Part shown: positions 24,838 to 44,568 of the stretch, piece by piece
Numbering within the stretch: position 1 is the first letter of the stretch
How the letters are laid out: each line of letters opens with the position of its first letter
DNA from: Candidatus Raskinella chloraquaticus
Lineage (GTDB): Bacteria > Pseudomonadota > Alphaproteobacteria > Rhizobiales > UBA4765
Length of the DNA: 64,000 nt
Direction of reading: 5' to 3'
NCBI GenBank assembly: GCA_002365175.1
Contig: DEZK01000012.1
Span: 3,330 to 67,329, forward strand
Notes under the pieces: model-generated
What the model saw: only the letters and a program-made list of their open reading frames with translations
Told to the model about the DNA's origin: nothing
Database searches by the model: none
Made by a program: the position numbers and the translations under genes

Positions 24838-25447
24838 CACGGTCCCACTCCACAAGATAGCGCAGACCTTCCCGGCCATGGCGGGTGCGCAACAGGGTCA
24901 GATCAAAAAGCGGGTGGCCAGGGGCACGTGCTGCCAAGGCCCGCGATGGTGCCGGGTGGATCAGCCAACGCGTCTCGGCCGCGCTGGCATGGGGCGTGGC
25001 GGCCATCCGCGTGATGAAAACGCCGATGCCTGAAGCCTTCGCCGCCAGCACCAGACGCCGGCTTGCGGTCAGATCATAGGCTTTTGCCTCGCCCCATAAT
25101 TCGATCATCACCGCCCCGAGGCCGTGGCAGCGTGCGCCTTCAAGCCCTGCCTGGAGCGCGCCGGTGACATCAGGCGTCCGCACCAGGATCACCTGCGCCG
25201 GATCAACACCGAATTCCGCAAGGCCCGCCGCATAGGGCGCGCCATGTTCCCGATCAAGGGCGGCGTGGCGAACCCACAGCTTCGGGCCGCGTTTGGCCAG
25301 GTGCATCAGGGCCAGGACCCCGCCTGTCATGGCCATGCTCCGGATGCCGGTGCCGGCATAGAACTCATGCACCGCCTCGCCCGCCAGCGTGAATTGGGGC
25401 CGTGCATCCGGGTCGGCATGGGGTAACGGTCTTGGCATGAGGGTCAT
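24671..25447 (-). CDS. imuA: ImuA, RecA/SulA-like SOS mutagenesis protein
   Basis: It is the first gene of the cassette. HEFYAGTG...LWVRHAALDREHGAPYAAGLAEFGVDP...LRYLVEWD matches ImuA organisation. A LexA box lies 17 nt upstream. Confidence 0.85.
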   Translation of the reverse strand: MTLMPRPLPHADPDARPQFTLAGEAVHEFYAGTGIRSMAMTGGVLALMHLAKRGPKLWVRHAALDREHGAPYAAGLAEFGVDPAQVILVRTPDVTGALQAGLEGARCHGLGAVMIELWGEAKAYDLTASRRLVLAAKASGIGVFITRMAATPHASAAETRWLIHPAPSRALAARAPGHPLFDLTLLRTRHGREGLRYLVEWDRDVRDLVIHSVVTIADSLIDDRTGIDGTAPLSRAVAALPVNRPGMPGIEPAAQRHS

Positions 25448-25854: not shown

Positions 25855-26192
25855 CGCGGAATTCTCCCGTTTTGCTCGTTTCGGTACGCGTACACGCCGA
25901 TCGAACCAAGATGACACCGCCTCAGCGTATCATACCCGTCGCCAAACCGCTGTCATCGCATCCACCGCATCGCATCCACAGCATAACGCCGTTCTGCCAG
26001 CTCAATATAGGCGATATTACTGGCGTTATAAGATCGTTTGTATTGGTTTGTATCTGTTTAAAAATGTTTATAGTTGTCAAGATATCTCCATATGTGTATG
26101 AAAATTTTTACGCAGAGCTCCTCAAGCAGGAGAGTGCCAACAAAATCCAGCCTGAAGGCTGGCCGAGGATGCTGACAGGGAGGGTATTAATC

Positions 26193-27938
26193 ATGACCGA
26201 TACAACCATCGCCGGGGCGGGTGCTGCCGAGCGGGCCCGGCCGATGACACGAGAGGAACGCAAGGTTATCGCTGCGTCCTCCGCCGGTACTATTTTTGAA
26301 TGGTATGATTTCTATCTTTATGGATCGCTGGCGGCGATTATCGCCAACCAGTTCTTTTCGCCTTTCCCCGAAGCAACCCGCAATGTTTTCGCCCTGCTGG
26401 CGTTTGCTGCCGGCTTCCTCGTACGCCCTTTCGGCGCCCTCTTCTTTGGCCGTCTTGGTGATATCGTCGGGCGCAAATATACCTTCCTCCTCACCATCAT
26501 GATCATGGGCATTTCGACCTTCATTGTCGGCTTGCTGCCAACCTATGCCTGGCTCGAAAGCAATTTCGCTATTGGTTGGCTGGCGCCCGTCATCCTGATC
26601 GTTCTGCGCATGTTGCAGGGCCTGGCGCTCGGCGGTGAATATGGTGGCGCCGTTGTCTATGTGGCCGAACATGCGCCTCACGGTCGCCGCGGCTATTTCA
26701 CCAGCTGGATCCAGACCACAGCCACACTTGGTTTGCTCCTTTCGCTCATGGTCATCCTCGGTGTTCGCACCTGGACCGGTGAGAAGGAGTTCGCCGAATG
26801 GGGTTGGCGCATCCCCTTCCTGCTGTCGATCTTCCTGCTGGCAATTTCCGTGTGGATTCGCTTGCAAATGGAAGAAAGCCCGATCTTCAAGAAGATCAAG
26901 GATGAGGGCAAGCAGTCAAAAGCGCCGCTCAGCGAAGCTTTCGGGCAATGGAAGAACGCCAGGTTTGCGCTCATCGCTCTCTTGGGACTTGTCGCTGGCC
27001 AAGCGGTCGTGTGGTATACGGGACAGTTCTACGCCCTGTTCTTCCTGCAAAGCATCTTGCGTGTTGATCCCTTCACCGCCAACGTGCTGATTGCCTGGTC
27101 GCTCATCCTGGGTACGGCAGGGTTTGTGATCTTTGGTTCGCTGTCCGATCATATCGGTCGCAAGCCGATCATTCTGGCTGGCATGGTCCTGGCTGTCCTC
27201 ACCTATTTCCCGGTGTTTCAGTTCATTACCGCCACCGCCAACCCGCAGCTTGACCGGGCCCAGCAGACAACCAAGGTAACGGTCATCGCCGCCAAGGATG
27301 ACTGCTCGTTCCAGTTCAACCCGACGGGTACGTCCAAATTCACCAATTCCTGTGATGTGGCGAAGGCTCTGCTGGCCCGCAACTCAGTGAATTACTCGGT
27401 CGAACCTGCACCCGCTGGCTCAATCGCGAAAATCAAGGTCGGCAATACCGAAGTACCGGCTTATGATTTGAGCAAGCTGACGGGGGACGCGGTCCGCACC
27501 ACACCTGCGGCCTTCACCAAGTCTGTCAATGAAGCGCTTGCGGCGGGTGGCTATCCGATGGCAGGCCAGCCCAATCCGGAGCTGGTGAAGATGTCTGGCT
27601 TCTTTGACATCTTCCGCGCCCAGACCTTCGGGCTTGTCCTGGTTCTGACCTATCTCGTCATCCTGGTAACCATGGTCTACGGACCAATTGCTGCAGCCCT
27701 GGTCGAGCTCTTCCCGACCCGCATCCGCTACACCGGTATGTCGCTGCCCTACCACATCGGCAATGGCTGGTTCGGCGGATTGATGCCGGCAACGGCCTTT
27801 GCCATGATCGCCCAGACTGGCGACCCCTATTTCGGTCTCTGGTATCCGCTGGTGATTGCTGCCGGATGCTTCGTGATCGGTCTGTTCTTCTTCACTGATA
27901 ATTACAAGAAGGACATCTTCGCCGAAGACAACAAGTAA
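26193..27938 (+). CDS. MFS transporter, metabolite:H+ symporter-like, with a large extra loop domain
   Basis: The ATG at 26193 follows GGGAGGG. FEWYDFYLYGSLAA and GRLGDIVGRKYTF are MHS-family motifs. I count 12 TM segments, with about 125 aa inserted between TM9 and TM10. Confidence 0.88.
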   Translation: MTDTTIAGAGAAERARPMTREERKVIAASSAGTIFEWYDFYLYGSLAAIIANQFFSPFPEATRNVFALLAFAAGFLVRPFGALFFGRLGDIVGRKYTFLLTIMIMGISTFIVGLLPTYAWLESNFAIGWLAPVILIVLRMLQGLALGGEYGGAVVYVAEHAPHGRRGYFTSWIQTTATLGLLLSLMVILGVRTWTGEKEFAEWGWRIPFLLSIFLLAISVWIRLQMEESPIFKKIKDEGKQSKAPLSEAFGQWKNARFALIALLGLVAGQAVVWYTGQFYALFFLQSILRVDPFTANVLIAWSLILGTAGFVIFGSLSDHIGRKPIILAGMVLAVLTYFPVFQFITATANPQLDRAQQTTKVTVIAAKDDCSFQFNPTGTSKFTNSCDVAKALLARNSVNYSVEPAPAGSIAKIKVGNTEVPAYDLSKLTGDAVRTTPAAFTKSVNEALAAGGYPMAGQPNPELVKMSGFFDIFRAQTFGLVLVLTYLVILVTMVYGPIAAALVELFPTRIRYTGMSLPYHIGNGWFGGLMPATAFAMIAQTGDPYFGLWYPLVIAAGCFVIGLFFFTDNYKKDIFAEDNK

Positions 27939-28349: not shown

Positions 28350-29171
28350 GTGACCGGGATATCCATCCGTTTCTGGGGCGTTGGCGGCTCGATGCCGGCG
28401 CGCGCTTCCAGGCGCCGCATGTTTGGCGTGCAGACATGCTGTTTTGAAATCCGCGCCGGCCATCAGCGTCTTATCATCGATGCCGGCACCGGCATTGCCG
28501 ATCTCGGCCACAGCCTGGCGGACGATGACGCCGCCGCGCTCGACATTCTGCTCACCCATTGTCATTGGGACCATATCTTCGGCTTGACCGGCTTTTCGCC
28601 CATGTTCGCCAGCGGGCGGAAGATCAATCTGCGCTTTGCCGCCCTGTCGGGCGAAAGTCCTGCGGATGTTCTCGATGCCTTGTTCAAGCCGCCCTATTTT
28701 CCGCTTGCCCCGGGTGATCTGCGCAGCACGATTTCACTGCAGACGATCGCGCCTGCAATCCCCTTCACCCTGGATGCCCTGACGGTGCGCCCCATCGCGC
28801 TCAATCATCCAAACGGGGCCAGCGGATTTCGGATCGACAGCAGCGATGCCGCGATCGCCATCATCACCGACCACGAACACGGCGTGGGGGCAATCGATGA
28901 CGAGATCGTCAAGCTGTGCGCCAATGTCGACCTGCTCATCTATGATGCCATGTGGGACGGCGATGTCGACTATCAGGCGCATCGCGGCTGGGGCCATTCG
29001 ACCTGGCAGGCCGGCCTTGACATCCTGCGGCGGGCAGGGGGCAAGCGGCTCGTCTGCGTCCATCACGATCCACGGCTGAGCGATGAGGACCTGTCCGCGC
29101 GCGAAAGGCGGCTGCAGAGCGAGCATCCGGACAGTCTGTTTGCGCGCGAAGGGATGACGTTGAGGACATGA
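28350..29171 (+). CDS. MBL-fold metallo-hydrolase, a candidate class-II-like cyclic-nucleotide phosphodiesterase
   Basis: GTG start. The metal motif is LLTHCHWDHIFGLTGFSP (HxHxDH). It ends 10 nt upstream of the cNMP-binding ABC-type gene. Confidence 0.75.
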   Translation: MTGISIRFWGVGGSMPARASRRRMFGVQTCCFEIRAGHQRLIIDAGTGIADLGHSLADDDAAALDILLTHCHWDHIFGLTGFSPMFASGRKINLRFAALSGESPADVLDALFKPPYFPLAPGDLRSTISLQTIAPAIPFTLDALTVRPIALNHPNGASGFRIDSSDAAIAIITDHEHGVGAIDDEIVKLCANVDLLIYDAMWDGDVDYQAHRGWGHSTWQAGLDILRRAGGKRLVCVHHDPRLSDEDLSARERRLQSEHPDSLFAREGMTLRT

Positions 29172-29181
29172 GCGCAGCGCG

Positions 29182-32100
29182 ATGAAACCATTGTTTGCCT
29201 ATATCTGGGAGCATTCAAGGCGCGAGCAATTGCTTATCCTGCTCGTGGTGCTTCTGTCGTTTCCGTTCTATTTCTATTCGCTCGATCTGCCGAAATATAT
29301 CGTCTCGGACGCCATTCAGGGCCGCGCCTTTGCGGCTGGAAAAACCGAAGCCGTTCTGTTCCATCTGGCGCTGACCCTGCCAGGTTTTCTGGGTGGCGCC
29401 CATGTCGAGCTTTTCTCCGGCATCAGCCTGTCGCGGCTGCCTTATCTCTTTGCCTTGAGCGCGCTCTTCCTGCTGCTTGTCGTTATCAACGGCGTGTTCA
29501 AATATATCATCAATATGCGCAAGGGGGCGCTCGGCGAGCGTCTGCTGCAATATCTGCGCTTTGATCTTTTTTCGCTCCTGCTGCGCTTCTCGCCCGAGGC
29601 TCTGCGCAACGTCAAGGCGTCGGAAGCCGCCACCATCATCAAGGACGAGGTCGAACCCATCGGTGGCTTTGTCGGCGATGCCTTCATTCAACCCGTCTTC
29701 CTCGGTGGTCAGGCGCTGACGGCTCTCACCTTCATCCTCCTGCAAAGCCCGATTCTTGGATTTCTGGCCGGGCTGATTGTCTTTGTTCAGGCAGCCGTCA
29801 TCCCGCGCTTGCGCCGCGAGCAGATACGGCTCGGCAAGGAGCGCCAATTGCGCTCACGCGCCCTGGCCGGGCGTATCGGCGAAGTGGTGGACGGCATCAG
29901 TGAGGTCGGCAATCACGGTACCAGCGCGTTTGAGCGCCAGCGCATCGGCGGCATGCTCGAACAACTCTTCACCATCCGCTACCGGCTCTACGGCCGCAAA
30001 TTCGCAGTCAAATTTGCCAATAATTTGCTGGCCCAGATGACGCCCTTCCTCTTTTACACGCTGGGTGGCGTCGCTGCCCTGCGGGGCGAGATCGATATTG
30101 GTCAGCTGGTCGCTGTCATTGCCGCCTATCGCGAATTGCCGCCACCCGTGAAAGAACTCATCGACTGGGACCAGCAGCGCCTCGATGTCGATGTCAAATA
30201 CCAGCAGGTCGTGGAACAATTCAGCGCCGGCGTGGCGCCGAGCGTCCCATCCCCCTCAACCGCCGACATGCCCGACCTCATCAACGGCTCGATCGTCATC
30301 CAGGGCCTGAAGGTGATGAGCGCAAGTGACGACGTTCTGGTCGATGGCATCAATCTTACTTTGCCGCTTGGCAAGCACGTCGTGCTGGCTGAGCGGGCTG
30401 GCGATGGCGCGCGCACCCTGGCGCAAATCCTTGGCCGCCGCCTCAGCCTGTACACAGGCTCGATCCGCATCAACGGTGCTGATCTGTCAACCCTGCCCGT
30501 CTCGCTCCACGGGCGCCACGTCGCCCACGCCATCCCTGATGCCGCCATCTTCGACGGCAGCATCCGCGACAATCTCATTTACAGTCTGCAGCAGCGGGTC
30601 AACGAGCCCGACATGCATGGTGTTGCGGTGGCGGCGGACTGTGTGGATTATTCACTGGCGGGCGTTGAGGACGCAGCCGGCCTTGATCACGCGATTGGCG
30701 AGGTTCTGCGCGATGTTGGTCTCGACGAGGCGGTCTTCCGCTTTGGTTTGGCCCGCAAGCTTGAGTCCGGTGGCGATGGGCTCGTGGAGCACATGGTGGA
30801 ATTGCGCGGCGATGTGCGCCGTCAACTTGATGAAAGCGGGCTTGCCGCGCTGGTCGAACCCTTCGATGCCGATGCCTACAACGACAATTCGACCATTGGC
30901 GAAAACCTGCTGTTCGGCGTTCCTCTCGGTGAAGCGATGCGTGACACCAACCTCGCCATGTTGCCGTTCACCCGCCAGCTGCTTGATCAATGCGGGTTAA
31001 GCGAAGGCCTGGCGCTGACCGGCCGGCGCATCGCGGTAACGATGGTCGAGATTTTCACCGGCGTCTCGTCCGACCATTTCCTGTTCGAGCAATTCTCCTT
31101 CATTTCGGCCGACGAACTCGACGATTTCCGCGACATGCTGGGCCGCACCGACGGTCCCGTCGCCACGTTCAGCAGCGCCGACCGTGACCGCCTGGTGGCG
31201 CTCGCTTTCCTTTACGTTGAACCGCGGCACCGCCTGGGTCTGCTTGATGCCGCGCTGCGCGACAAGATCCTGTTGGCCCGTCACCAGTTCCGCCGTGGCG
31301 CGCCAAGTGACCTGGCAACCAGCATCGAATTCTACGACAGCGAACGCTATTGCACGGCCGCGCCGCTGCGCGACAACCTGCTCTTTGGACGCATCACCTA
31401 CGGAGCGTCTGGCGCGGCGGAGAAAGTGACAACCGCCATTCGCCAGTTATTGATCAAGCGGGGCTTCGATGTCGCCGTCTTCCGCCTGGGCCTCGAACAG
31501 CCCTGCGGACACGCCGGGCGTCTGCTGTTCCCCGCCCAGCGCAGCGCCATTGCTCTTGCCCGCTGCCTGATGAAACGCCCGGATATTCTGATCATCAACG
31601 AAGGCGTTCTCAACGCCAGCGAACCTGATGGCGCTGCCCTGCTTGAGAGGCTTCGCCGGCGCATGGCGGGCAAGTCCCTGTTTGTCGTCCTGCGTGCCGG
31701 CGACCCGGCAACCGGCTTCGATGCGCGCATCGAGCTTGCCGCGGGCAAAGTCGTCAGTGGCCTTGCTGCCGCCGAACGCGACACGCCCGAACCAGCCGCG
31801 CGCGCCGCCAGTGACAGTGCCGAATTGGGAGCGCTGCAAGCAGTGCCTATGTTCGCTGATGTCGATCTTGCCCGTCTCAAGCTGCTGGCCTTCACCAGCG
31901 AGCGTTTGACCTATCGGGCGGGCGACGTCGTGTTCAGGCAGGGTGATCCATCCGATTCGGCCTATGTTCTGATTTCCGGGAGAGCCGACATCATCATCAA
32001 CACGGCCGACGGCCCGATGACCGTCAACACCGTCAGCCGCGGGGCGATCGTCGGTGAGATCGGTATCATTACCGGTGCGCCCCGTTCCGCAACCATCCGC

Positions 32101-32250
32101 GCGCTTGAGGATATCAGCGTGCTTTGCCTGCGCCAGGATATCTTCCTCAGCCTGATGAGCGAATTCCCTGAAATGTCGCTTGCCGTGACGCGCCTCGTCG
32201 TCCGCCGCCTGCAGGATAACATTGCCACCCTGCAATCACAGCGGCGGTGA
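29182..32250 (+). CDS. ABC-exporter-type membrane protein with a degenerate nucleotide-binding domain and a C-terminal cyclic-nucleotide-binding domain
   Basis: The N-terminal roughly 330 aa is an ABC transmembrane domain. The NBD motifs are altered: AERAGDGART for Walker A, LFPAQRSAIALARCL for LSGGQ, ILIINEG for Walker B. The C-terminal CNB domain reads FRQGDPSDSAYVLISGRADI...GEIGIITGAPRSATIRA. Confidence 0.8.
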   Translation: MKPLFAYIWEHSRREQLLILLVVLLSFPFYFYSLDLPKYIVSDAIQGRAFAAGKTEAVLFHLALTLPGFLGGAHVELFSGISLSRLPYLFALSALFLLLVVINGVFKYIINMRKGALGERLLQYLRFDLFSLLLRFSPEALRNVKASEAATIIKDEVEPIGGFVGDAFIQPVFLGGQALTALTFILLQSPILGFLAGLIVFVQAAVIPRLRREQIRLGKERQLRSRALAGRIGEVVDGISEVGNHGTSAFERQRIGGMLEQLFTIRYRLYGRKFAVKFANNLLAQMTPFLFYTLGGVAALRGEIDIGQLVAVIAAYRELPPPVKELIDWDQQRLDVDVKYQQVVEQFSAGVAPSVPSPSTADMPDLINGSIVIQGLKVMSASDDVLVDGINLTLPLGKHVVLAERAGDGARTLAQILGRRLSLYTGSIRINGADLSTLPVSLHGRHVAHAIPDAAIFDGSIRDNLIYSLQQRVNEPDMHGVAVAADCVDYSLAGVEDAAGLDHAIGEVLRDVGLDEAVFRFGLARKLESGGDGLVEHMVELRGDVRRQLDESGLAALVEPFDADAYNDNSTIGENLLFGVPLGEAMRDTNLAMLPFTRQLLDQCGLSEGLALTGRRIAVTMVEIFTGVSSDHFLFEQFSFISADELDDFRDMLGRTDGPVATFSSADRDRLVALAFLYVEPRHRLGLLDAALRDKILLARHQFRRGAPSDLATSIEFYDSERYCTAAPLRDNLLFGRITYGASGAAEKVTTAIRQLLIKRGFDVAVFRLGLEQPCGHAGRLLFPAQRSAIALARCLMKRPDILIINEGVLNASEPDGAALLERLRRRMAGKSLFVVLRAGDPATGFDARIELAAGKVVSGLAAAERDTPEPAARAASDSAELGALQAVPMFADVDLARLKLLAFTSERLTYRAGDVVFRQGDPSDSAYVLISGRADIIINTADGPMTVNTVSRGAIVGEIGIITGAPRSATIRALEDISVLCLRQDIFLSLMSEFPEMSLAVTRLVVRRLQDNIATLQSQRR

Positions 32251-32263
32251 TCGACGCGCGGCG

Positions 32264-34495
32264 TTACTTGTCGTCCATCGTCGTACTGCCATCCCAATCA
32301 GCAGGTGGTGGCGCAAGCAGCAGGGCGGTAGCCCGCTTGCTATAGACGTCATAAAGCCCGGCAAGCCGCAAAGGTGCTAGCGCGCGCGCCGCGTTCGCCT
32401 TGTCGATGACGGCCTCGAAGCGTCGTTCGCGATAGGCGTCAAGCACCTCGTGATGGGCAAGACGATACGCGGCGAAATCGCCGCGCGCGGCCTCTTCCTC
32501 GCTGCCCATCAGCGTGAAGAGACGCGTTGCCTGCACCTTGCCCTTGAGCCGCACGAGATCGACTTCGATCCACGGCAGGTCAGGCGCGAGATCGTGCGTG
32601 GTCTCCGCCGCCAGCAGATCAACGCCCAGATATTTGGTGGCCCCTTCCAGACGGGAGGCGACGTTGACTTCGTCCCCGATCGCTGAGTAGTCGAACCGCC
32701 GGGTTGACCCGAGATTGCCGACGCAGCACTCGCCCGTGTTCAGTCCGATACCGAAGCGGGCAATCGGGAAATGTCGCCCCTGGGCGCTTGCCTGCGCCTG
32801 CCAGCGCTGGTTCAGTTCCGCCAGCCGGTCGATCATCAAAAGCGCGGTCCGGCCTGCATTGATGGCGTGCTTGTCGTCATCAAGCGGCGCGTTCCAGAAC
32901 GCCATGATGGCGTCCCCCATATATTTGTCGACCGTGCCATTGTGATCGAGGACAAGGTCGGTCATCGGCGTCAGATAATCATTCATGAAGCGCGTCAGTT
33001 CCTGCGCGCTCATGCCTTCGGAGAGCGTGGTGAAGCTGCGCAGATCGCAGAACATGAGGGTGAGCGTGCGGTTCTCTCCGCCAAGGACAAGACGGCTTGG
33101 ATCACCCGCAAGCCGCTCGACGACGGCCGGCGCGACAAAGCGCTCAAAGGCTGAACGCACCTGCCGCTTCTGCGCCTGCTCCTGCCAGTAGAGGCACGAT
33201 AGCCCGGCGAGATAGATGACGCCCCCGGAGGCGCTCGGCACCACCGGGTCAACGAGGATGCCGCCTTGATGAAAAAGGTACCAGCTGCCGCCAACCAGCA
33301 CAGCAACAACGCCAGCCCCGAGAAGGCCAAGGATAATGGCCGGCGTGCGCGGCAGGAACACCATGAAAATGACGCAGGAAAGGATAGCCAGCGCCGCTTC
33401 AGCGCCCAGCGCCCAGTCCGGCCGGCTGAGTTGGCCGCCGGCGATGATGTGCTCGACCAGCTGGGCGTGAACTTCGACACCCGGGATGGTCGCGTCGATA
33501 GGTGTGGTGCGCTGGTCAAGCAGCCCTGCCGCGCTGGAGCCGATGAAGAAAATGCGCCCTTCGATCTCGTCTGGTTTGATCTCGTCGGCGAGGATCTGCC
33601 AGGCCGGCACGAAGCGTCGCGGTTCATGAGCGGAGAACCGCACCCGGACATCGCCGCTTGACCCCGTATCGATCACAAATTGCCCGATCTTGACGGCGTT
33701 GACACCGGTTGCAGCGCCAAAGGCGGTTTCCCCGCTGGCGTTGGATGATTTGACGATGACCGTATCGACGCCCTGCGCCACCCTGAGCGCTTCGGCGGCA
33801 AGTCCAAGAGCTAATTTTCCGCCAACTCCGAGAAGGACCGGCACCCGCCTGATCGTCTGATCGCGATCAGGCAACCAGTTGAGCATGCCGATGCCGCTGG
33901 CCTGCGCCGCGAAGTCGGGCAGTGGCAGAACGGCAGAGGCGAACCGTGGCACGAACTGCGCCGGATCATCGCCCGCCGTTACCCATCCATGCTTTTGCGG
34001 CAAGGTGATCGTGAGCGGCGAGGCGGTGGCAATAGCCCCAAGAACGACGGGCTTGCCGGCGATGGCCGCAGCAAACACCGCATCATTGGTCGGCAGATCA
34101 ACGATATCGCGCGCCACCGCGTCACGTGCAGCCGATGGCGGCAGGAGCGACAATATCTGGTCAGGGCTCGTGCGATCGCCCTCGGCAAGCGCGATGTCGA
34201 AGGCGACCACGGCAGCGCCCATCGCCGACAGCTTGTCGACCAGTTGCGCCATGCGGGTGCGCGGCCAAGGCCACTGGCCGATGCGGGTAAGCGAAGCATC
34301 ATCGATATCGATGATGCGCACCGGGGCGTCCGCATCCCATTGTCGCGGCGACAGGCGCTGGTAGCTGTCGAATACCAGATCGCGCAGCGGCGCGAGGGCG
34401 TGCGGTGCGGCGATCTCGAAAAAGACAATAAGGGCAAAGGGAATGCCGACCGCCAGCCAGTATAATCGGTTCGCGTAGCGCATGCCCGGCTTCAA
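32264..34495 (-). CDS. CHASE2 sensor domain-containing class III adenylate/guanylate cyclase
   Basis: CHASE2 is seen in VRIIDIDDASLTRIGQWPWPRTRMAQLVDKL...AFDIALAE, followed by TM helices. The cyclase core is LTLMFCDLRSFTTLSE...VDKYMGDAIMAFWNAP...GLNTGECCVGNLGS...YSAIGDEVNVASRLE. The TTG start at 34495 overlaps the upstream stop; an ATG at 34483 is an alternative. Confidence 0.9.
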   Translation of the reverse strand: MKPGMRYANRLYWLAVGIPFALIVFFEIAAPHALAPLRDLVFDSYQRLSPRQWDADAPVRIIDIDDASLTRIGQWPWPRTRMAQLVDKLSAMGAAVVAFDIALAEGDRTSPDQILSLLPPSAARDAVARDIVDLPTNDAVFAAAIAGKPVVLGAIATASPLTITLPQKHGWVTAGDDPAQFVPRFASAVLPLPDFAAQASGIGMLNWLPDRDQTIRRVPVLLGVGGKLALGLAAEALRVAQGVDTVIVKSSNASGETAFGAATGVNAVKIGQFVIDTGSSGDVRVRFSAHEPRRFVPAWQILADEIKPDEIEGRIFFIGSSAAGLLDQRTTPIDATIPGVEVHAQLVEHIIAGGQLSRPDWALGAEAALAILSCVIFMVFLPRTPAIILGLLGAGVVAVLVGGSWYLFHQGGILVDPVVPSASGGVIYLAGLSCLYWQEQAQKRQVRSAFERFVAPAVVERLAGDPSRLVLGGENRTLTLMFCDLRSFTTLSEGMSAQELTRFMNDYLTPMTDLVLDHNGTVDKYMGDAIMAFWNAPLDDDKHAINAGRTALLMIDRLAELNQRWQAQASAQGRHFPIARFGIGLNTGECCVGNLGSTRRFDYSAIGDEVNVASRLEGATKYLGVDLLAAETTHDLAPDLPWIEVDLVRLKGKVQATRLFTLMGSEEEAARGDFAAYRLAHHEVLDAYRERRFEAVIDKANAARALAPLRLAGLYDVYSKRATALLLAPPPADWDGSTTMDDK

Positions 34496-35625
34496 GCCCC
34501 TCGTCTGGCGATGTCCGTCTGGCGCAAGGCATCCTTGATCCCGGGTGCGCGCTCGATTACCGCTGCAAGATCACGCTTGGAGAGCGATAACAATTTCGTC
34601 CGGCCCTTTGCATTCACCGTCGCGCTCCGTGGCTCGTCGGTGAGCAGGGCATGTTCACCGAAATAATCACCGCTGTCGAGACGGATCGGTCCCCCTTCGG
34701 TTGCAACCTCGACGCTGCCGCCAAGGATGAAATACATGCGCTCACCCGGTTCGCCACGACGGATGATGACCGCGCCGTCTTCAAATGATTCTGCATTGAG
34801 CTGCTCGGCGATAGCCGCGATGGCGGCGGCCGGCAGGCTCCTGAACAGCGGGACGCGCGCCACCATGTTCCACGTCACCACGAAGCTGCGCTTTGCCAAT
34901 GTCGCGTCAAACGCGGACGCAATGACGCCCATGGGGAGCGCCAGCACGAGAAAGCCGCTGATACTGAGAATGACATAGAGCACTTGCCCGAGGCGGGTAT
35001 CGGGCGTGCTGTCATCGCCGCTGGCACCCGTCACGGTGCTGATCGTCCACCAGATGACACTGGTCAGATGGCCGAATTCCTCTGGCTGACCGGCCCGCTC
35101 AAGCAGGAAAATCGCACTGCCGAAGATCATCCCGATCATGCCAACGATGATGGCGCTGGCAAAGAGGGCTTGGCGACCCAGCATCAGCGCCTGGCCAAGC
35201 GCGCTCAGCATCGGCGAATAACGCACCAGTTTGAGGCAGCGCGGCAGGGCGAGCGCCGTGGCGCGTTCAAGCGAAAGAGAGCCCGTGAGGAAGGCAAGAA
35301 TGCCGGCCAGAATATAAAGATCGAGCAGGGCACCGGCCGATGAGGCATGCATCCATCGCGCCGCGACAGGTCCCATCGCCGCAAAACGGGGATTGTCGGG
35401 TGCCGCCCACAGGCGAAAGCCGTATTCGCTGCCAAGAACGATCAGCATGAGGGTTTCGCTGAAGGGCGGCACCCGGGAGGAAATGCCAAGGTCAGGCTCG
35501 ATTGCCAGAACCAGAATGAGCAGGCTGACGATGATCGAGGCTGCCAGAAAATGATGAAGCCTGCCGCCCCAGGCACCCGCAAGGGCTCCATCCTCCAGCA
35601 ACGTGAAATACTGCGCCCTGGTCAT
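34492..35625 (-). CDS. Cyclic-nucleotide-gated ion-channel homolog (MloK1-like: 6-TM ion-transport domain plus C-terminal CNB domain)
   Basis: The S4-like segment is LPRCLKLVRYSPML. The pore region WWTISTVTGASGDDSTPDT lacks a TxGYG filter. The CNB domain reads GEPGERMYFILGGSVEV...FGEHALLTDEPRSATVNA. The ATG at 35625 is preferred over the TTG at 35658. Confidence 0.85.
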   Translation of the reverse strand: MTRAQYFTLLEDGALAGAWGGRLHHFLAASIIVSLLILVLAIEPDLGISSRVPPFSETLMLIVLGSEYGFRLWAAPDNPRFAAMGPVAARWMHASSAGALLDLYILAGILAFLTGSLSLERATALALPRCLKLVRYSPMLSALGQALMLGRQALFASAIIVGMIGMIFGSAIFLLERAGQPEEFGHLTSVIWWTISTVTGASGDDSTPDTRLGQVLYVILSISGFLVLALPMGVIASAFDATLAKRSFVVTWNMVARVPLFRSLPAAAIAAIAEQLNAESFEDGAVIIRRGEPGERMYFILGGSVEVATEGGPIRLDSGDYFGEHALLTDEPRSATVNAKGRTKLLSLSKRDLAAVIERAPGIKDALRQTDIARRGA

Positions 35626-35688
35626 CGCCACATTCCGGGTTAGCCAGCCGCCAGCCAATAAGGCGACGTCGACAGAAGGGCGCGCCGT

Positions 35689-38133
35689 CTAGCGCCGCGC
35701 CGCAAAGATGCCGGCGGCGTTGTAAACCCCCGGCCCGCTTGGCGGCGTGCCGGTGATGGTAAATTGTCCGCCCTGTTCAAGCGGTGCGGTGCCAGCCCCG
35801 GTATTGGGGCCGAAGAACGAGCCCTGGAGCGATCCGCTGGCAGGGACAGGACTTCCACTCGTGGCGAAACTGCCGTTGAAATTGGCCCGGTTGGCTGAGT
35901 TCAGCGTACTCGTCCCGGCATAATTGCGCTGGTCGAAGGTGAAGGCGAGACTGCCCGTTCCCTGGCCGAAATTGACGGTATGATTGAAGGTGCCGCCCGC
36001 GACGTAATTGGTGCCCGTATTGGTCACAGGCGCGCTGGTACTGCCTGGTCCGAATTGCACGTTGCCGATGATGTGGCCGTTATAGGTAGCACTGCCGGTC
36101 GTCGGGATAAGCGAGCGATCAGACAATTGTCCGGCGACCCACGTCAGAAGATGTCCGCGCTCCTGATCATTGCCGCCACCAGCATTGTCGCGGACCGCGC
36201 GAGTTGACCAGAAGCCCCATTTGGTGAATTCGCACTGGCAAGGCGTGATGTCGGTCGCGGCGATGACAGCCTGTGCCGCTGCCGGATTGGTGCCGGTGAT
36301 CGTATCCCAGCTGGTCAATCCCGATTGAATGTTTCGATAGGTGCCACTGCCGGTGGAACTGATGTAAGGGGCCGGCGAATCGGTTTGGGGGGCCGTTGTG
36401 TTTGGATCGCGGACCGTGCGATCACGAAGGGCAAAGGTATTTGTGTCGATATAGGTGCTGCGCGCTGCCTGTGTCGTGTTGAGATTGCCAAATTGATAGG
36501 TGCCGTTCACCAACCGAGAGCCAGCCGTACGGCTGGCCAGTTGAATATCGGCCGAGGCGCGCGATGTGCCGCCATCTAAAACGAGCGCAACATCGCTGCC
36601 ATCTCCGTTTCGTCCCGTCACAGTCACAAACTGCGTGGCGATGCGATTGCCCGAGGCATCAAATGTTCCCGTCTCCAGGATTCCGCCCGCATAGCCGGCG
36701 AGCGACAGATTTGGTCGGTTTGCTCCAAGGCTGGCGGGAACCGAGGTCGAAGCAACTGATTGAGTGAAGGTATAATTTTGTCCATTGCCAGGTATGGTAC
36801 CACCGAACTGGGAGGCAACATCGGCAACGGGCTGGTTGGCGCGATTGTAATCGTTTTGATCAATGGTCAAAGATACGGGAATGCGGCTGCCATCGCTCGC
36901 TAATTGCACGCTTCCTGGAACAGACGAGATAGCTGAAACCGCGAAGGCTGCTCGTTGTGTTGCTGATTGCCGCGAAGACGCTTGAATCCCGCCATTATAG
37001 ATCGTTTCCTGTCCTGCCGTGAAGAACGCTTCGGTCACGACCGAGAACACCGAGGTCTGCGCTGCGCCGCGCCCGGTGATGCCAAAGCCGACCTGCAGGG
37101 TGCGGATGGTTTCGCTGGAGGCTAAATTGTCAGCACCGCCAACTCTGTAACCAAGAAGGGGCGTGGTGGTAACTTGCGTTGGGCCGACAAAAAGCGCGGT
37201 CAGATAAGGGACAGAGGACCCAGCTCCCGCACTCACACTGTAGGCGAGGGCGCGCGGGGCAAGAGAAGCTTGGATGTTTTGAACAAGTGGCGCTGCTGCT
37301 GTCGTCGTCGATGTTACCTGCGTTGACTGGCGGGTGTCGGTGACGCTTTGATTGGTGGAGCCGGTTTGCTGCGCCACCTGATTGGTCGATTGTGTCGTCG
37401 ACAGCACCACATTTGACTGCGAGCGATCGCCTGCCAGCTGCGTGTTGGCTGTGGTGTCGCTGGGGGGCGTGGCGCTGCCGCCTGTTTGTCCTGACTGGCT
37501 CGTCGTCTGGCCGGTTGCGGTTGCCAGCACCTGCGGGGGGGTGCGTGTTGGCTGCGAGGGCGACTGGCCCTGGCCAACGGTTGTCGTATAGCCCTGCACC
37601 ATCGTCACCGTGCCGCCGGCAAGGCCGGTGACGGTCGCAGAGCCAACGATGCTGGACGTGGTCTGCGTCTGGCTCTGCGGGTTGAACGACGTGGTGGCGA
37701 CCGCCCCGCGCAGGCCGATGGTGGCGACCGGTGTCTTGATTTCGGCATTGCCATTATGGCTGATCTGCCCGCCGACGAAGCGCAGCGCCCCCTTGGCAAG
37801 GCCGATGCTCATTTTGCCGTCGCGCTTTGCTGGATCATAGACGTATTCATTGATCACAACATCGCTGTTGGGGCCGATATTGAGCGTCGATTTATCAAGA
37901 AACACCAGCTGCAGCGAGCCTGCGCCTGAGGTGACAAAGCGCTCCTTGAAGATGACCTGACTGCCTAGCGTCACCTGTTTTGTCCCACCGCCCGGCGGCG
38001 TGCTTTGGGTGAGCGGATTGACCGCGCCGGTGGTGCCGACATTCTGTGCCAACCCGTTGCTGGCAAGCGCACACACGCTCGCCCCCATCAGGAGAACGGC
38101 GTGACGGGTTTTAATCATGGATGAGCTTGCCAT
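35689..38133 (-). CDS. Secreted FecR-domain protein with a T/S/Q-rich linker and a C-terminal TbpB-type (Slam-cargo-like) beta-barrel domain
   Basis: The ATG at 38133 has GGGGAAAG upstream. The signal peptide MASSSMIKTRHAVLLMGASVCALASNGLAQ has no canonical lipobox. The FecR region reads GSQVIFKERFVTSGAGSLQLVFLDKSTLNIGPNSDVVI. The C-terminus reads GSATYNGHIIGNV...FNHTVNFGQGTGSLAF...FNGSF...LQGSFFGPNTGAGTAPLEQGGQFTI...AAGIFAARR. Confidence 0.8.
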   Translation of the reverse strand: MASSSMIKTRHAVLLMGASVCALASNGLAQNVGTTGAVNPLTQSTPPGGGTKQVTLGSQVIFKERFVTSGAGSLQLVFLDKSTLNIGPNSDVVINEYVYDPAKRDGKMSIGLAKGALRFVGGQISHNGNAEIKTPVATIGLRGAVATTSFNPQSQTQTTSSIVGSATVTGLAGGTVTMVQGYTTTVGQGQSPSQPTRTPPQVLATATGQTTSQSGQTGGSATPPSDTTANTQLAGDRSQSNVVLSTTQSTNQVAQQTGSTNQSVTDTRQSTQVTSTTTAAAPLVQNIQASLAPRALAYSVSAGAGSSVPYLTALFVGPTQVTTTPLLGYRVGGADNLASSETIRTLQVGFGITGRGAAQTSVFSVVTEAFFTAGQETIYNGGIQASSRQSATQRAAFAVSAISSVPGSVQLASDGSRIPVSLTIDQNDYNRANQPVADVASQFGGTIPGNGQNYTFTQSVASTSVPASLGANRPNLSLAGYAGGILETGTFDASGNRIATQFVTVTGRNGDGSDVALVLDGGTSRASADIQLASRTAGSRLVNGTYQFGNLNTTQAARSTYIDTNTFALRDRTVRDPNTTAPQTDSPAPYISSTGSGTYRNIQSGLTSWDTITGTNPAAAQAVIAATDITPCQCEFTKWGFWSTRAVRDNAGGGNDQERGHLLTWVAGQLSDRSLIPTTGSATYNGHIIGNVQFGPGSTSAPVTNTGTNYVAGGTFNHTVNFGQGTGSLAFTFDQRNYAGTSTLNSANRANFNGSFATSGSPVPASGSLQGSFFGPNTGAGTAPLEQGGQFTITGTPPSGPGVYNAAGIFAARR

Positions 38134-38144
38134 CGTCTTTCCCC

Positions 38145-44477: not shown

Positions 44478-44568
44478 CTTCCTCTCCCCGCTGCCGTCTT
44501 TCTCGGCTAGAGCTAGCAGAAGGCCGCCATTTGTCGAAGCGAGCACGGCCATATCAGGGGAGGCTCCC

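What the first reader, a model, noticed from the sequence alone, without database searches (positions are those of the whole stretch)
29182..32250. ABC-exporter scaffold with a degenerate ATPase site, a roughly 300-aa insertion and a fused cNMP-binding domain
Seen in sequence: the N-terminal transmembrane domain looks like a type-I ABC exporter. In the NBD, Walker A reads AERAGDGART with Ala where the catalytic Lys (GK[ST]) would sit. The LSGGQ signature reads LFPAQ and Walker B reads ILIINEG (Asp replaced by Asn). The stretch between the Q-loop region and the signature is about 300 aa rather than a few dozen. It contains three copies of a [ST]I[RG][DE]NL[IL][FY]-like motif (SIRDNLIY, TIGENLLF, PLRDNLLF). 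A canonical CNB domain closes the protein. Inference: this is probably not a conventional ATP-driven pump. It may be a cNMP-regulated membrane effector or a regulatory partner that needs a competent NBD elsewhere.
Basis: partly seen in the sequence, partly recalled or inferred. Interest (0 to 1): 0.6.

Follow-up and report, generated by a model that had tools for sequence, protein, structure and literature searches.

The report
cNMP-linked ABC-fold protein, dead ATPase
This gene encodes a membrane protein built like an ABC export pump whose ATP-burning motifs are all lost, whose ATPase domain carries two extra copies of one of its own segments, and which ends in an intact cyclic-nucleotide sensor; it belongs to a large, unstudied bacterial family that probably uses cAMP/cGMP rather than ATP hydrolysis to switch the transporter.

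Summary
ORF 29182-32250 (+) encodes 1022 aa: a six-helix ABC-exporter transmembrane domain, a split nucleotide-binding domain (NBD), and a C-terminal cyclic-nucleotide-binding (CNB) domain. Aligned to a canonical exporter in the same window, the Walker A Lys is Ala410, Q-loop Gln is Pro452, LSGGQ is LFPAQ, Walker B Asp is Asn806 and H-loop His is Arg838. None of the 120 closest homologues has the Walker A Lys or the H-loop His.

The roughly 270-aa "insertion" is two extra tandem copies of the Q-loop strand plus the start of the helical subdomain (profile-profile E about 1e-11).

The insert marks a family of at least 444 clusters, present in at least 576 species genomes, mostly Alphaproteobacteria. 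A CNB module is either fused or encoded by the next gene (6 of 7 unfused relatives checked). A few distant members keep near-canonical ATPase motifs.

Here and in Alsobacter the gene sits beside an MBL-fold phosphodiesterase-like gene and a CHASE2 cyclase.

Best reading: a cNMP-controlled, ATP-hydrolysis-independent ABC-fold effector, acting as a gated transporter or channel. The substrate is unknown. A partner with a competent NBD is unlikely, because both Walker A and signature are lost. No literature on this family was found.

The parts
29182..32250 (+). Whole gene: 1022-aa ABC-exporter-fold protein with a pseudo-NBD and a C-terminal CNB domain
   Evidence: ORF list; Pfam and NCBIfam; AF2 model pLDDT 82.4; Foldseek matches to PCAT1, BmrCD, TmrAB and MsbA, TM-score about 0.59 on the target
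29182..30216 (+). Transmembrane domain, aa 1-345: six long helices with a beta-hairpin loop between TM1 and TM2. It is the most conserved part of the protein.
   Evidence: PF00664 at aa 92-314; helices in the AF2 model; mean major-residue frequency 0.77, the highest of all regions; invariant motif I327-D-W-D-Q-x-R333
30289..30534 (+). N-terminal half of the pseudo-NBD, aa 370-451, including the degenerate Walker A (aa 403-412, nt 30388-30417, AERAGDGART)
   Evidence: PF00005 profile positions 2-80 only; column counts show K replaced by A in 95 of 121; 0 of 120 homologues with Lys
30535..30852 (+). Repeat unit A, aa 452-557: Q-loop position (P452), SIRDNLIYS helix, 'GLDEAVFRFGL' helices
   Evidence: hhalign vs canonical Q-loop region P=78%, E=1.8e-5; vs unit C P=97.4%, E=1.5e-11
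30853..31323 (+). Repeat unit B, aa 558-714: 'LVEPFD...TIGENLLFG...CGLSEGLALTG' followed by about 95 aa of family-specific helices
   Evidence: hhalign vs unit C P=97.7%, E=2.3e-12; no Pfam family; confident helices in the AF2 models; no PDB fold match for units A+B
31324..31581 (+). Repeat unit C plus degenerate signature, aa 715-800: 'IEFYD...PLRDNLLFG...GFDVAVFRLGL', LFPAQ at aa 782-786 (nt 31525-31539)
   Evidence: hhalign of aa 712-865 vs the canonical NBD P=97.5%, E=5e-12 over 127 columns; column counts
31582..31767 (+). C-terminal half of the pseudo-NBD, aa 801-862: Walker B ILIINE (N806, E807; nt 31585-31602) and H-loop position R838
   Evidence: Alignments to ABCB19 and to the in-window canonical exporter; column counts
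31822..32247 (+). CNB domain with C-terminal helix, aa 881-1022; phosphate-binding cassette GEIGIITGAPRSAT at aa 958-971 (nt 32053-32094). It is joined to the NBD by a poorly conserved, low-pLDDT linker, aa 863-880.
   Evidence: PF00027 E=1.6e-22; PBC residues invariant in 108 homologues; 31-53% identical to stand-alone CNB genes next to unfused relatives
28350..29171 (+). Upstream same-strand MBL-fold (ElaC/PhnP-like) phosphodiesterase-type gene; candidate cNMP phosphodiesterase
   Evidence: PF12706 E=3.8e-19; weak NF041851 cyclic-nucleotide-degrading phosphodiesterase hit, 50 bits against a cutoff of 400; PDB relatives ELAC1, PhnP, RNase Z; homologue within the 6-kb flank of the family gene in 10 of 83 loci (directly adjacent in most) and in L084, L085, L087
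32264..34495 (-). Convergent CHASE2 + class III nucleotidyl cyclase gene
   Evidence: PF05226 E=5e-53 and PF00211 E=7e-16; orthologues (41-42% identity over about 660-680 aa) in the same position relative to the family gene in Alsobacter L084 and L085; a cyclase domain within 6 kb in 23 of 83 loci
34492..35658 (-). Ion_trans + CNB channel gene (cyclic-nucleotide-gated channel type), overlapping the cyclase start by 4 nt
   Evidence: PF00520 and PF00027; conserved only in L004 and L008

Best explanation
Proposal. The protein is an inner-membrane, probably homodimeric, ABC-exporter-fold (type IV / MsbA-like) protein whose nucleotide-binding domain no longer binds or hydrolyses ATP.

What the sequence shows:
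- The NBD was enlarged by two extra tandem copies of its Q-loop/helical-subdomain segment, giving a cytoplasmic module of about 490 aa.
- That module is tethered to a cyclic-nucleotide-binding domain whose ligand-binding residues are intact.

Proposed mechanism (inferred):
- cAMP or cGMP is made by the neighbouring CHASE2 cyclase and removed by the neighbouring MBL-fold phosphodiesterase-like enzyme.
- The nucleotide binds the CNB domain and takes over the role ATP plays in ordinary ABC exporters. It drives association or rearrangement of the two cytoplasmic modules.
- Through the conserved coupling region, this switches the transmembrane domain between states.
- The output would be the gated, energetically downhill (or ion-gradient-coupled) passage of a polar solute.

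Shown here: the architecture, the loss of motifs and its conservation, the repeat origin of the insert, the conservation pattern (TMD and CNB highest), the fused/split CNB partnership, and the gene linkage to cyclase and phosphodiesterase-like genes.

Inferred, not shown: homodimer formation, cNMP as the ligand, the lack of ATP binding, the gating mechanism, and the existence and identity of a transported substrate.
For: ATPase motifs are lost and the loss is conserved:
- Registers: K to A410, Q to P452, LSGGQ to LFPAQ, D to N806, H to R838 (the Walker A register was read by eye against the in-window canonical exporter).
- Walker A Lys 0 of 120; H-loop His 0 of 120; signature Ser 7 of 120.

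The protein is under selection:
- Homologues at 38-56% identity over the full length in at least 576 species genomes.
- The TMD is the most conserved region (0.77) and the CNB next (0.70). This is the reverse of ordinary ABC exporters, where the NBD is most conserved (the comparison with ordinary exporters is from general knowledge).
- Invariant residues include polar ones in TM helices and the DWDQxR linker.

The CNB looks functional: PBC residues G958, E959, G961, R968 and A970 are invariant.

The CNB partnership is a family hallmark:
- It is fused here. It is a separate adjacent gene in 6 of 7 unfused relatives examined, including near-canonical distant ones.
- The stand-alone CNBs are 31-53% identical to the fused domain.

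Linkage to cNMP metabolism:
- A cyclase domain lies within 6 kb in 23 of 83 loci, often on the same strand directly downstream.
- An MBL homologue lies within the 6-kb flank in 10 of 83 loci, directly adjacent in most.
- The same four parts (ABC-like, CNB, MBL, CHASE2 cyclase) occur in Alsobacter.

No ABC partner gene recurs in the neighbourhood.

The fold is supported: AF2 pLDDT 82.4 with a confident insert, and exporter half-transporters as the best PDB matches.
Against: - There are no biochemical data of any kind.
- A glycine-rich loop survives in many homologues (consensus G-x-x-G-E-G-A-G), and E807 is kept in this protein. Some non-canonical nucleotide binding therefore cannot be excluded.
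- Some distant family members keep K, S/T, signature Ser and the Walker B D-E (P0193, P0263). The family as a whole is therefore not ATP-independent, and the insert and CNB partnership are compatible with a true ATPase.
- No substrate clue was found. Neighbourhoods apart from cyclase and MBL are variable.
- Contacts between CNB, insert and TMD could not be inspected, because no coordinates, PAE or multimer prediction were available.
- CNB-like domains can bind other ligands; HetC's binds ppGpp in vitro (PMC10986499).
Confidence: 0.5

Rival explanations
1. It is a cNMP-sensing signal transducer or scaffold that transports nothing. The ABC-fold membrane domain serves as an anchor or interaction surface, for example giving feedback on the membrane-bound CHASE2 cyclase or recruiting the phosphodiesterase. 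The pseudo-NBD and insert act as a docking platform.
For: - Loss of the ATPase motifs.
- Recurrent adjacency to cyclases and to an MBL-fold gene.
- The enlarged helical insert has no fold match and could be a protein-binding surface.
- ABC proteins acting as regulators are known (SUR; general knowledge).
Against: - The TMD is the most conserved region, with invariant polar residues (S26, Y30, N103, Q177, Q203, N280, Q285, Q308, Y316) that I place in the membrane helices by inference. This is more typical of a translocation path.
- About two thirds of related loci have no cyclase or MBL gene within 6 kb. A dedicated cyclase-regulator role does not fit all members.
Confidence: 0.2
2. It is still an ATP-dependent transporter. 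It would bind, and perhaps slowly hydrolyse, ATP through a non-canonical site, with cNMP only modulating activity as it presumably does in the near-canonical family members.
For: - Distant family members retain GSGK[ST], LSxxQRQ and LDE (P0263, P0193, P0139).
- A glycine-rich P-loop remnant and E807 persist.
- The overall NBD fold is predicted with confidence.
Against: - Five independent catalytic elements are replaced, with acidic residues (E404, D408) inside the P-loop.
- Walker A Lys 0 of 120 and H-loop His 0 of 120.
- The catalytic Glu is N, Q or D in most homologues.
- NBD parts are less conserved than the TMD.
Confidence: 0.12
3. It is the degenerate subunit of a heterodimeric ABC exporter, with the competent partner encoded elsewhere in the genome.
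For: - Heterodimeric exporters with one degenerate site are common (TM287/288, BmrCD, TmrAB; the review PMC7756269 appeared in the list).
- A canonical half-transporter lies 9 kb away in this window (41328-43085).
Against: - No ABC half-transporter recurs near the gene in 83 loci. The in-window exporter has a counterpart in only one other locus.
- Same-genome paralogues are also degenerate.
- Both Walker A and signature are lost, so both composite sites of any dimer would be defective (established ABC architecture). Known degenerate subunits keep the Walker A Lys (general knowledge).
Confidence: 0.07
4. It is the effector of an anti-phage cyclic-nucleotide defence system of the Pycsar type: a cyclase plus a CNB-containing membrane effector that damages the membrane on infection.
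For: - PADLOC hits of the CNB domain to PycTIR effector models, and of the cyclase domain to PycC, 92 bits.
- The general logic of a cyclase plus a CNB-membrane protein.
Against: - The hits cover only the generic CNB and cyclase domains.
- The cyclase carries a CHASE2 domain, described as an extracytoplasmic sensor (general knowledge), which fits environmental sensing.
- The gene is conserved across Alphaproteobacteria in housekeeping-type and varied contexts rather than defence islands.
- No cyclase lies within 6 kb in most loci.
Confidence: 0.03
5. It is a decaying, non-functional relic of an ABC exporter.
For: Loss of the catalytic motifs.
Against: - The 1022-codon ORF is intact.
- Full-length homologues at 38-56% identity occur in hundreds of species.
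- Many residues are invariant, the CNB cassette is invariant, and the insert is confidently folded.
Confidence: 0.02

Closest known systems
Type IV (formerly type I) ABC exporter half-transporters: MsbA, PCAT1, BmrCD, TmrAB, TM287/288, ABCB1
   Same: - Six-helix ABC_membrane domain followed by an NBD in one chain.
- Best sequence and fold matches.
- The order of NBD elements is preserved.
   Different: - All ATP-site motifs except the catalytic Glu are replaced.
- The Q-loop/helical-subdomain segment is present three times, adding about 270 aa.
- A CNB domain is fused at the C-terminus.
- The TMD is more conserved than the NBD.
HetC of Nostoc PCC 7120 (a peptidase-containing ABC exporter with a CNB-like domain; PMC10986499)
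   Same: An ABC exporter carrying a cNMP-binding-type regulatory domain that is required for function.
   Different: - HetC's CNB domain is N-terminal and binds ppGpp in vitro.
- HetC has a C39 peptidase domain.
- Its ATPase catalytic residue is essential.
- Here the CNB is C-terminal with a canonical cNMP cassette, there is no peptidase, and the ATPase motifs are lost.
CFTR and SUR (ABCC7, ABCC8/9): ABC proteins that act as a gated channel or a channel regulator
   Same: The concept only. An ABC exporter fold is used for gating or regulation rather than pumping, with degenerate ATP-site elements and an added regulatory domain (general knowledge).
   Different: - CFTR and SUR still bind ATP at both sites and keep the Walker A lysines.
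- They are regulated by phosphorylation or Mg-nucleotides, not by a CNB domain.
- They are eukaryotic full-length transporters.
- There is no evidence that this protein is a channel.
SbmA/BacA (SLiPT) transporters
   Same: A precedent for an ABC-exporter-type transmembrane fold working without ATP hydrolysis (proton-driven; general knowledge).
   Different: SbmA/BacA have no NBD at all. This protein keeps an enlarged pseudo-NBD and gives no SbmA_BacA Pfam match.
Bacterial cyclic-nucleotide-gated channels (MloK1 type). One is encoded at 34492-35658 in this window.
   Same: A C-terminal CNB domain with a 'PRSAT' cassette attached to a membrane transport domain. It shares a locus with the same cyclase.
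   Different: The membrane domains are unrelated: Ion_trans tetramer versus ABC-exporter fold. The CNB domains are only distantly related to each other.

Membership tests
ABC exporter half-transporter (ABCB/MsbA-like, type IV fold) | Six-helix ABC_membrane transmembrane domain N-terminal to the NBD | tested here: met
   PF00664 E=7.7e-9; six long helices in the AF2 model; Foldseek TM-score about 0.59 to PCAT1, BmrCD and MsbA
ABC exporter half-transporter (ABCB/MsbA-like, type IV fold) | Walker A GxxGxGK[ST] | tested here: not met
   AERAGDGART; by-eye ungapped register against GRSGAGKST of the in-window exporter: K to A410, S to R411, G to E404; the A410 assignment agrees with HMMER alignments to ABCB19; 0 of 120 homologues have Lys
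ABC exporter half-transporter (ABCB/MsbA-like, type IV fold) | Signature motif LSGGQ | tested here: not met
   LFPAQ at aa 782-786; signature Ser in 7 of 120, first Gly in 0 of 120
ABC exporter half-transporter (ABCB/MsbA-like, type IV fold) | Walker B hhhhD followed by catalytic E; Q-loop Gln; H-loop His | tested here: not met
   ILIIN806-E807 (Asp lost, Glu kept here; in the family D 43 of 120, E 12 of 120); Q to P452 (Gln in 2 of 120); H to R838 (His in 0 of 120)
ABC exporter half-transporter (ABCB/MsbA-like, type IV fold) | ATP binding and hydrolysis coupled to transport | not testable with these tools
   Requires purified protein
Cyclic-nucleotide-binding domain proteins (PF00027, CAP/PKA-R/CNG type) | Beta-barrel with the phosphate-binding cassette G-E-x-[AG]...R-[ST]-A | tested here: met
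   PF00027 E=1.6e-22, profile positions 2-88 of 89; GEIGIITGAPRSAT; G958, E959, G961, R968 and A970 invariant in 108 sequences
Cyclic-nucleotide-binding domain proteins (PF00027, CAP/PKA-R/CNG type) | Binds cAMP or cGMP | not testable with these tools
   Only inferred, from the cassette and from the linked cyclase and phosphodiesterase-like genes
Heterodimeric ABC exporters with one degenerate site (TM287/288, BmrCD, TmrAB type) | Partner half-transporter gene, usually adjacent; the degenerate subunit still has the Walker A Lys | tested here: not met
   No recurrent ABC partner in 83 loci; Walker A Lys absent
Insert-bearing, CNB-partnered ABC-like family (unnamed; defined here) | Triplicated Q-loop/helical-subdomain segment between Walker A and the signature | tested here: met
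   hhalign E=1.5e-11 and 2.3e-12. An insert-only search finds 714 cluster representatives (444 at E<=1e-10); most of the 150 listed hits (some of them fragments) cover nearly the whole insert
Insert-bearing, CNB-partnered ABC-like family (unnamed; defined here) | CNB module fused at the C-terminus or encoded by the next gene | tested here: met
   Fused here; adjacent in 6 of 7 unfused relatives; orthology of fused and free CNBs
Pycsar anti-phage system | Dedicated PycC cyclase paired with a CNB effector (TIR or short TM) in a two-gene defence operon | tested here: inconclusive
   Only domain-level PADLOC matches. The cyclase has a CHASE2 sensor, the effector is an ABC fold, and the contexts are not defence islands.
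SbmA/BacA (SLiPT) | SbmA_BacA-type TMD without any NBD | tested here: not met
   No SbmA_BacA Pfam hit; a pseudo-NBD is present

The most novel reading that the evidence does not exclude
A bacterial ABC-exporter-fold protein in which a second messenger has replaced ATP as the gating ligand. cAMP or cGMP binding to the CNB domain closes the enlarged pseudo-NBDs and opens an ATP-independent pathway through the membrane domain. This would be a prokaryotic, ligand-gated analogue of the pump-to-channel transition seen in CFTR.

One specific version is that the pathway releases the anionic cyclic nucleotide itself down the membrane potential. That would complete a synthesis (CHASE2 cyclase), degradation (MBL phosphodiesterase) and export module for cNMP homeostasis.

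The family would also offer living intermediates, from near-canonical ATPases with a separate CNB subunit to fully ATPase-dead fusions.
Probability: 0.3. Interest if true: 0.85.

Novelty: new variant of a known kind. Interest (0 to 1): 0.62.

Why it matters
ABC exporters are defined by ATP-powered alternating access. Documented exceptions are few: CFTR as a channel, SUR as a regulator, and the NBD-less SbmA/BacA.

This finding points to a large bacterial family, with at least 444 clusters at 50% identity and at least 576 species genomes. In this family:
- the ATPase domain was remodelled by internal triplication of the segment that normally talks to the membrane domain;
- a cyclic-nucleotide sensor is always fused or adjacent;
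- in a whole alphaproteobacterial clade, the ATP site has been erased on both sides of the dimer interface while the membrane domain stays highly conserved.

If cNMP gates this fold without ATP, it would be a new mode of operating the ABC exporter architecture and a new class of bacterial cAMP/cGMP effector. Known bacterial cAMP/cGMP effectors are dominated by CRP-type regulators, with only a few other classes such as an acetyltransferase and channels.

The graded series from near-canonical to degenerate members would make the evolutionary path directly testable. It also gives a concrete target for the many orphan cyclases of Rhizobiales-type genomes.

Tried and rejected
- **Foreign-domain insert.** Pfam finds nothing in the insert, and Foldseek of an insert-only AF2 model against the PDB finds nothing (best E=1.2). 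Profile-profile comparison shows instead that it is repeated self-sequence. The fold search therefore neither confirms nor contradicts that units A and B still fold like an ABC helical subdomain.
- **Adjacent ABC partner.** I looked for one with tblastn, using the in-window canonical exporter against 83 loci. Only self-hits and unrelated importer ATPases came up.
- **Channel and FecR-like neighbours as part of a conserved module.** They are conserved only in L004 and L008, so they are local context rather than a family feature.
- **Defence-system membership.** PADLOC gives only generic domain hits.
- **Literature.** Six full-text searches found no paper on this family. The only related items were HetC and a review noting that CNBD-transporter fusions are uncharacterised.
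- **Mycobacterial Rv0073/Rv2564.** I recalled these as CNB-ABC fusions, but the review I read does not mention a CNB domain. I dropped them as comparators.
- **Repeat register.** My first register for repeat unit 1 in the identity test was off by one and gave a false null. It was corrected.
- **Q-loop position.** My first reading placed the Q-loop glutamine at G451. The alignment to the canonical protein places it at P452.
- **cAMP versus cGMP.** I did not determine the cyclase's substrate-specifying residues.

Full report
**1. What is at the coordinates**

The finding corresponds exactly to one ORF, 29182-32250 on the + strand (1022 aa). Its ATG lies 10 nt after the stop of an upstream same-strand gene.
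- Pfam recognises an ABC exporter transmembrane domain (PF00664, aa 92-314).
- It also recognises only the first 80 of 137 profile positions of the ABC ATPase domain (PF00005, aa 388-474).
- It recognises a full cyclic-nucleotide-binding domain (PF00027, aa 909-994, E=1.6e-22).
- The missing second half of the ATPase domain is found much further along. NCBIfam places it at aa 738-821 and PDB sequences at aa 733-859.
- No NCBIfam model comes near its cutoff. The best is MsbA at 115 bits against a cutoff of 602, so the protein has no curated family.
- An AlphaFold2 model built on 66 homologues is confident (mean pLDDT 82.4, pTM 0.68). It shows six long TM helices, a beta-hairpin loop between TM1 and TM2, a folded insert and a flexibly linked CNB domain.
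- Its best PDB matches are exporter half-transporters: PCAT1, BmrCD, TM287/288, TmrAB, MsbA and Atm1, with TM-scores of about 0.59 normalised on the target.

**2. The ATP-site motifs are gone, and the loss is conserved**

The same window holds a canonical half-transporter at 41328-43085 with all motifs intact (GRSGAGKST, SQD, LSGGERQR, LLLDEAT, AHRL). I used it as an internal reference. Profile alignment of aa 712-865 to its NBD gives P=97.5%, E=5e-12 over 127 columns. The Q-loop region aligns at P=78%. The Walker A register was read by eye, ungapped, against the reference.

The registers are:
- Walker A 'AERAGDGART', with E404 at the first Gly, A410 at the Lys and R411 at the Ser.
- Q-loop Gln at P452.
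- Signature LSGGQ reads L782-F-P-A-Q786.
- Walker B reads ILIIN806-E807.
- H-loop His at R838.

HMMER alignments to ABCB19 give the same registers. By ungapped register with the reference, the A-loop aromatic position is S380; this last point is by eye only.

In an alignment with the 120 best homologues (46-98% identical), the states are conserved:

| Residue | Retained in close family |
|---|---|
| Walker A Lys | 0 of 120 (Ala in 95 of 121 aligned sequences incl. the query) |
| H-loop His | 0 of 120 (Arg in 92 of 121 aligned sequences incl. the query) |
| Q-loop Gln | 2 of 120 |
| Signature Ser | 7 of 120 |
| Walker B Asp | 43 of 120 |
| Catalytic Glu | 12 of 120 |

**3. The "insertion" is an internal triplication**

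The distance from the Q-loop position (452) to the signature position (783) is 331 aa, against about 60 in the reference. That leaves about 270 extra residues.

The three [ST]-h-R-[DE]-N-h-h-[FY]-G motifs (aa 460-467, 571-578, 728-735) each sit in a larger repeated unit:
- a short strand ('VAHAIPD', 'LVEPFDAD', 'IEFYDSE');
- the motif helix;
- some 30 residues later, a 'hh..h.GL....h..hGL' helix pair ('VLRDVGLDEAVFRFGL', 'LLDQCGLSEGLALTG', 'LLIKRGFDVAVFRLGL').

Evidence that these are true repeats:
- Profile-profile comparison of sub-alignments gives unit A (445-560) vs unit C (712-800) P=97.4%, E=1.5e-11.
- Unit B (556-716) vs unit C gives P=97.7%, E=2.3e-12.
- Unit A vs unit B gives P=57%, E=1e-4.
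- Reversed-profile controls give P<1%.
- Across the query plus 62 family representatives, the 24-residue cores are 37% (U2-U3), 25% (U1-U3) and 22% (U1-U2) identical within the same protein, against 7% after shuffling. The second conserved piece is 24-27% identical against 9-10%.

Unit A continues the Walker A half of the domain, and unit C runs directly into the signature helix and Walker B. The extra material is therefore best explained by tandem duplication of the Q-loop/helical-subdomain segment.

The rest of unit B, about 95 aa of helices, is family-specific. Pfam has no model for the insert. An insert-only AF2 model (pLDDT 80.8) has no significant PDB fold match (best Foldseek E=1.2). 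The repeat origin therefore rests on sequence profiles, not on fold comparison.

**4. A large family with a gradient of degeneration**

- Searching 1.84 billion cluster representatives with the insert alone returns 714 proteins (444 at E<=1e-10, 136 at E<=1e-30). Most of the 150 listed hits, some of which are fragments, cover nearly the whole insert.
- Full-length hits fall into about 820-950-aa forms and about 1030-1160-aa forms.
- A scan of one genome per species finds at least 576 genomes with a relative. They are mostly Alphaproteobacteria: Bosea, Ancylobacter, Labrys, Microvirga, Chelatococcus, Alsobacter, Rhizobium, Reyranella, Dongia and Kiloniellales.
- The window is 98% identical to a Hyphomicrobiales MAG contig (JAIEPZ010000004.1, L004).
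- Among the 62 full-length representatives, 20 keep the Walker A Lys, 29 the signature Ser, 19 the Walker B Asp, 14 the Glu and 5 the His.
- Only two (P0193, P0263) have Lys, Ser/Thr, signature Ser, Asp and Glu together. Almost none has the Q-loop Gln (3 of 62) or the signature Gly-Gly.

So the insert predates the loss of the ATP site. The clade containing this window is the fully degenerate end of the series.

**5. The CNB partnership is a family hallmark**

The roughly 880-aa relatives that seemed to lack a CNB domain are followed on the same strand by a separate 150-179-aa cNMP_binding gene. This holds for P0112 (Alsobacter), P0111, P0263, P0139, P0144 and P0184. Only P0217, the most eroded, lacks it, giving 6 of 7.

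These free CNB proteins are 31-53% identical to aa 865-1022 of the window protein (E 1e-30 to 1e-49). They are far less similar to the CNB of the neighbouring channel. This is a fused/split ("Rosetta stone") pair.

In 108 full-length homologues the phosphate-binding cassette is invariant at G958, E959, G961, R968 and A970, with S969 in 103 and T971 in 102.

Conservation by region:

| Region | Mean major-residue frequency |
|---|---|
| TMD | 0.77 |
| CNB | 0.70 |
| Unit C + signature | 0.67 |
| Unit B | 0.62 |
| NBD N-half | 0.60 |
| NBD C-half | 0.56 |
| Unit A | 0.53 |
| Linkers | about 0.3 |

This is the opposite of ordinary ABC exporters, where the NBD is the conserved part (general knowledge).

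**6. Gene neighbourhood**

In the window the gene is preceded by an MBL-fold gene (28350-29171, +). It has a PF12706 hit, PDB relatives ELAC1, PhnP and RNase Z, and a weak hit to a cyclic-nucleotide-degrading phosphodiesterase model.

It is followed, convergently, by a CHASE2 + class III cyclase gene (32264-34495, -). That gene overlaps by 4 nt an Ion_trans + CNB channel gene (34492-35658, -).

In Alsobacter and a related MAG the order is ABC-like, then CNB, then MBL, facing a convergent CHASE2 cyclase. The cyclase orthologues are 41-42% identical over about 660-680 aa.

Across 83 related loci with 6-kb flanks:
- A cyclase catalytic domain is present in 23. It is often on the same strand about 1.1-1.6 kb downstream (Microvirga, Chelatococcus, Hyphomicrobiaceae) or divergent upstream (Labrys).
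- An MBL homologue lies within the 6-kb flank in 10, directly adjacent in most.
- At least one of the two is present in 30. This is a lower bound, because many contigs are short.
- The channel and the FecR-like gene are shared only with L004 and L008.
- No ABC half-transporter recurs.

**7. How it most likely works**

In an ABC dimer, each ATP is sandwiched between Walker A, Walker B and the H- and Q-loops of one subunit and the signature of the other (established knowledge). This protein has lost both sides, so any dimer containing it, homo- or hetero-, has two defective sites. Same-genome paralogues are no better. Conventional ATP-driven pumping is therefore very unlikely, and a competent partner elsewhere would not rescue it.

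What is conserved instead is the membrane domain, the cytoplasmic coupling region (invariant E156-x-E158-P-x-G161 and I327-DWDQ-x-R333) and the CNB cassette.

My best explanation, at 0.5 confidence, has these steps:
- cNMP from the linked cyclase binds the CNB domain.
- Binding rearranges the enlarged pseudo-NBD. The two extra helical-subdomain copies plausibly form the docking and transmission surface, since insert and CNB always co-occur.
- This switches the membrane domain, giving ligand-gated, ATP-independent passage of a polar solute.

The substrate is unknown. Efflux of the anionic cyclic nucleotide itself is an attractive speculation, but nothing here supports it directly.

The main rival, at 0.2, is a non-transporting cNMP signal transducer or scaffold. 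Residual non-canonical ATP dependence (0.12), an obligate heterodimer (0.07), a Pycsar-like defence effector (0.03; only domain-level PADLOC hits) and a dead relic (0.02) are less likely.

**8. Comparison with what is known, and novelty**

The fold and ancestry are those of MsbA/ABCB-type half-transporters, but four defining catalytic motifs were tested and not met. I therefore do not file it as a functional ABC ATPase.

The nearest experimentally studied CNB-bearing ABC exporter I found is HetC of Nostoc. HetC has an N-terminal CNB-like domain that binds ppGpp in vitro, a C39 peptidase domain and an essential ATPase (PMC10986499). It differs from this protein in all three respects.

A 2023 review notes that CNBD-transporter fusions exist but are uncharacterised (PMC10710835). 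CFTR, SUR and SbmA/BacA are functional analogies only.

Six full-text searches found no paper on this family. Database names are generic: 'cyclic nucleotide-binding domain-containing protein' and 'putative ABC transport system ATP-binding protein'.

I rate it a new variant of a known kind, with interest 0.62. The anatomy is solid and unusual and the family is large. The function remains inferred, and fusions of CNB domains to transporters are not surprising in themselves.

Noticed in passing
window 34492-35658 (-) and 32264-34495 (-): A cyclic-nucleotide-gated-type channel gene (Ion_trans + cNMP_binding, 388 aa) ends 4 nt inside the TTG start of the CHASE2 cyclase gene. This suggests a translationally coupled cyclase-channel operon facing the ABC-like gene. 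The pairing is conserved only in L004 and L008.
   Followed up: partly
window 35689-38181 (-) and 38145-39338 (-): An 830-aa protein with a FecR domain and a C-terminal TbpB beta-barrel-like domain, followed by a 397-aa ORF with no Pfam match. The FecR-like gene is also next to the channel in L004 (89% identical) and L008 (35% identical). Its role is unknown.
   Followed up: partly
window 19721-25447 (-): An apparent imuA-imuB-dnaE2 type mutagenesis cassette: a 1211-aa DNA polymerase III alpha homologue, a 561-aa IMS (Y-family-like) protein, and a 258-aa ORF with no Pfam hit upstream.
   Followed up: no
window 41328-43085 (+): A canonical ABC exporter half-transporter (585 aa) with all ATPase motifs intact. 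I used it as the internal reference. It is not conserved next to the family gene in other genomes.
   Followed up: yes
L087 1-6911 and L088 1-5703 (loci of distant relatives P0139 and P0144): In two distant, near-canonical family members, the ABC-like gene plus its free CNB gene lies divergent from a cluster of three to four glycosyltransferase-type genes (Glyco_tran_28_C, Glycos_transf_1) and a double-NBD ABC protein. This may hint at a glycoconjugate substrate in that sub-clade.
   Followed up: no
window 25872-27938 (+): An MFS/Sugar_tr transporter ORF whose listed TTG start is probably far too early. The domain begins at about aa 133, and the N-terminal 110 aa look non-coding.
   Followed up: no
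L050 (JBNOAI010000006.1, labelled Leptospira interrogans): A 42%-identical full-length family member sits on a contig labelled Leptospira interrogans, among otherwise alphaproteobacterial hits. This could be assembly contamination or horizontal transfer.
   Followed up: no
window 44413-49377 (+): A very long ORF (1654 aa) that I did not examine.
   Followed up: no
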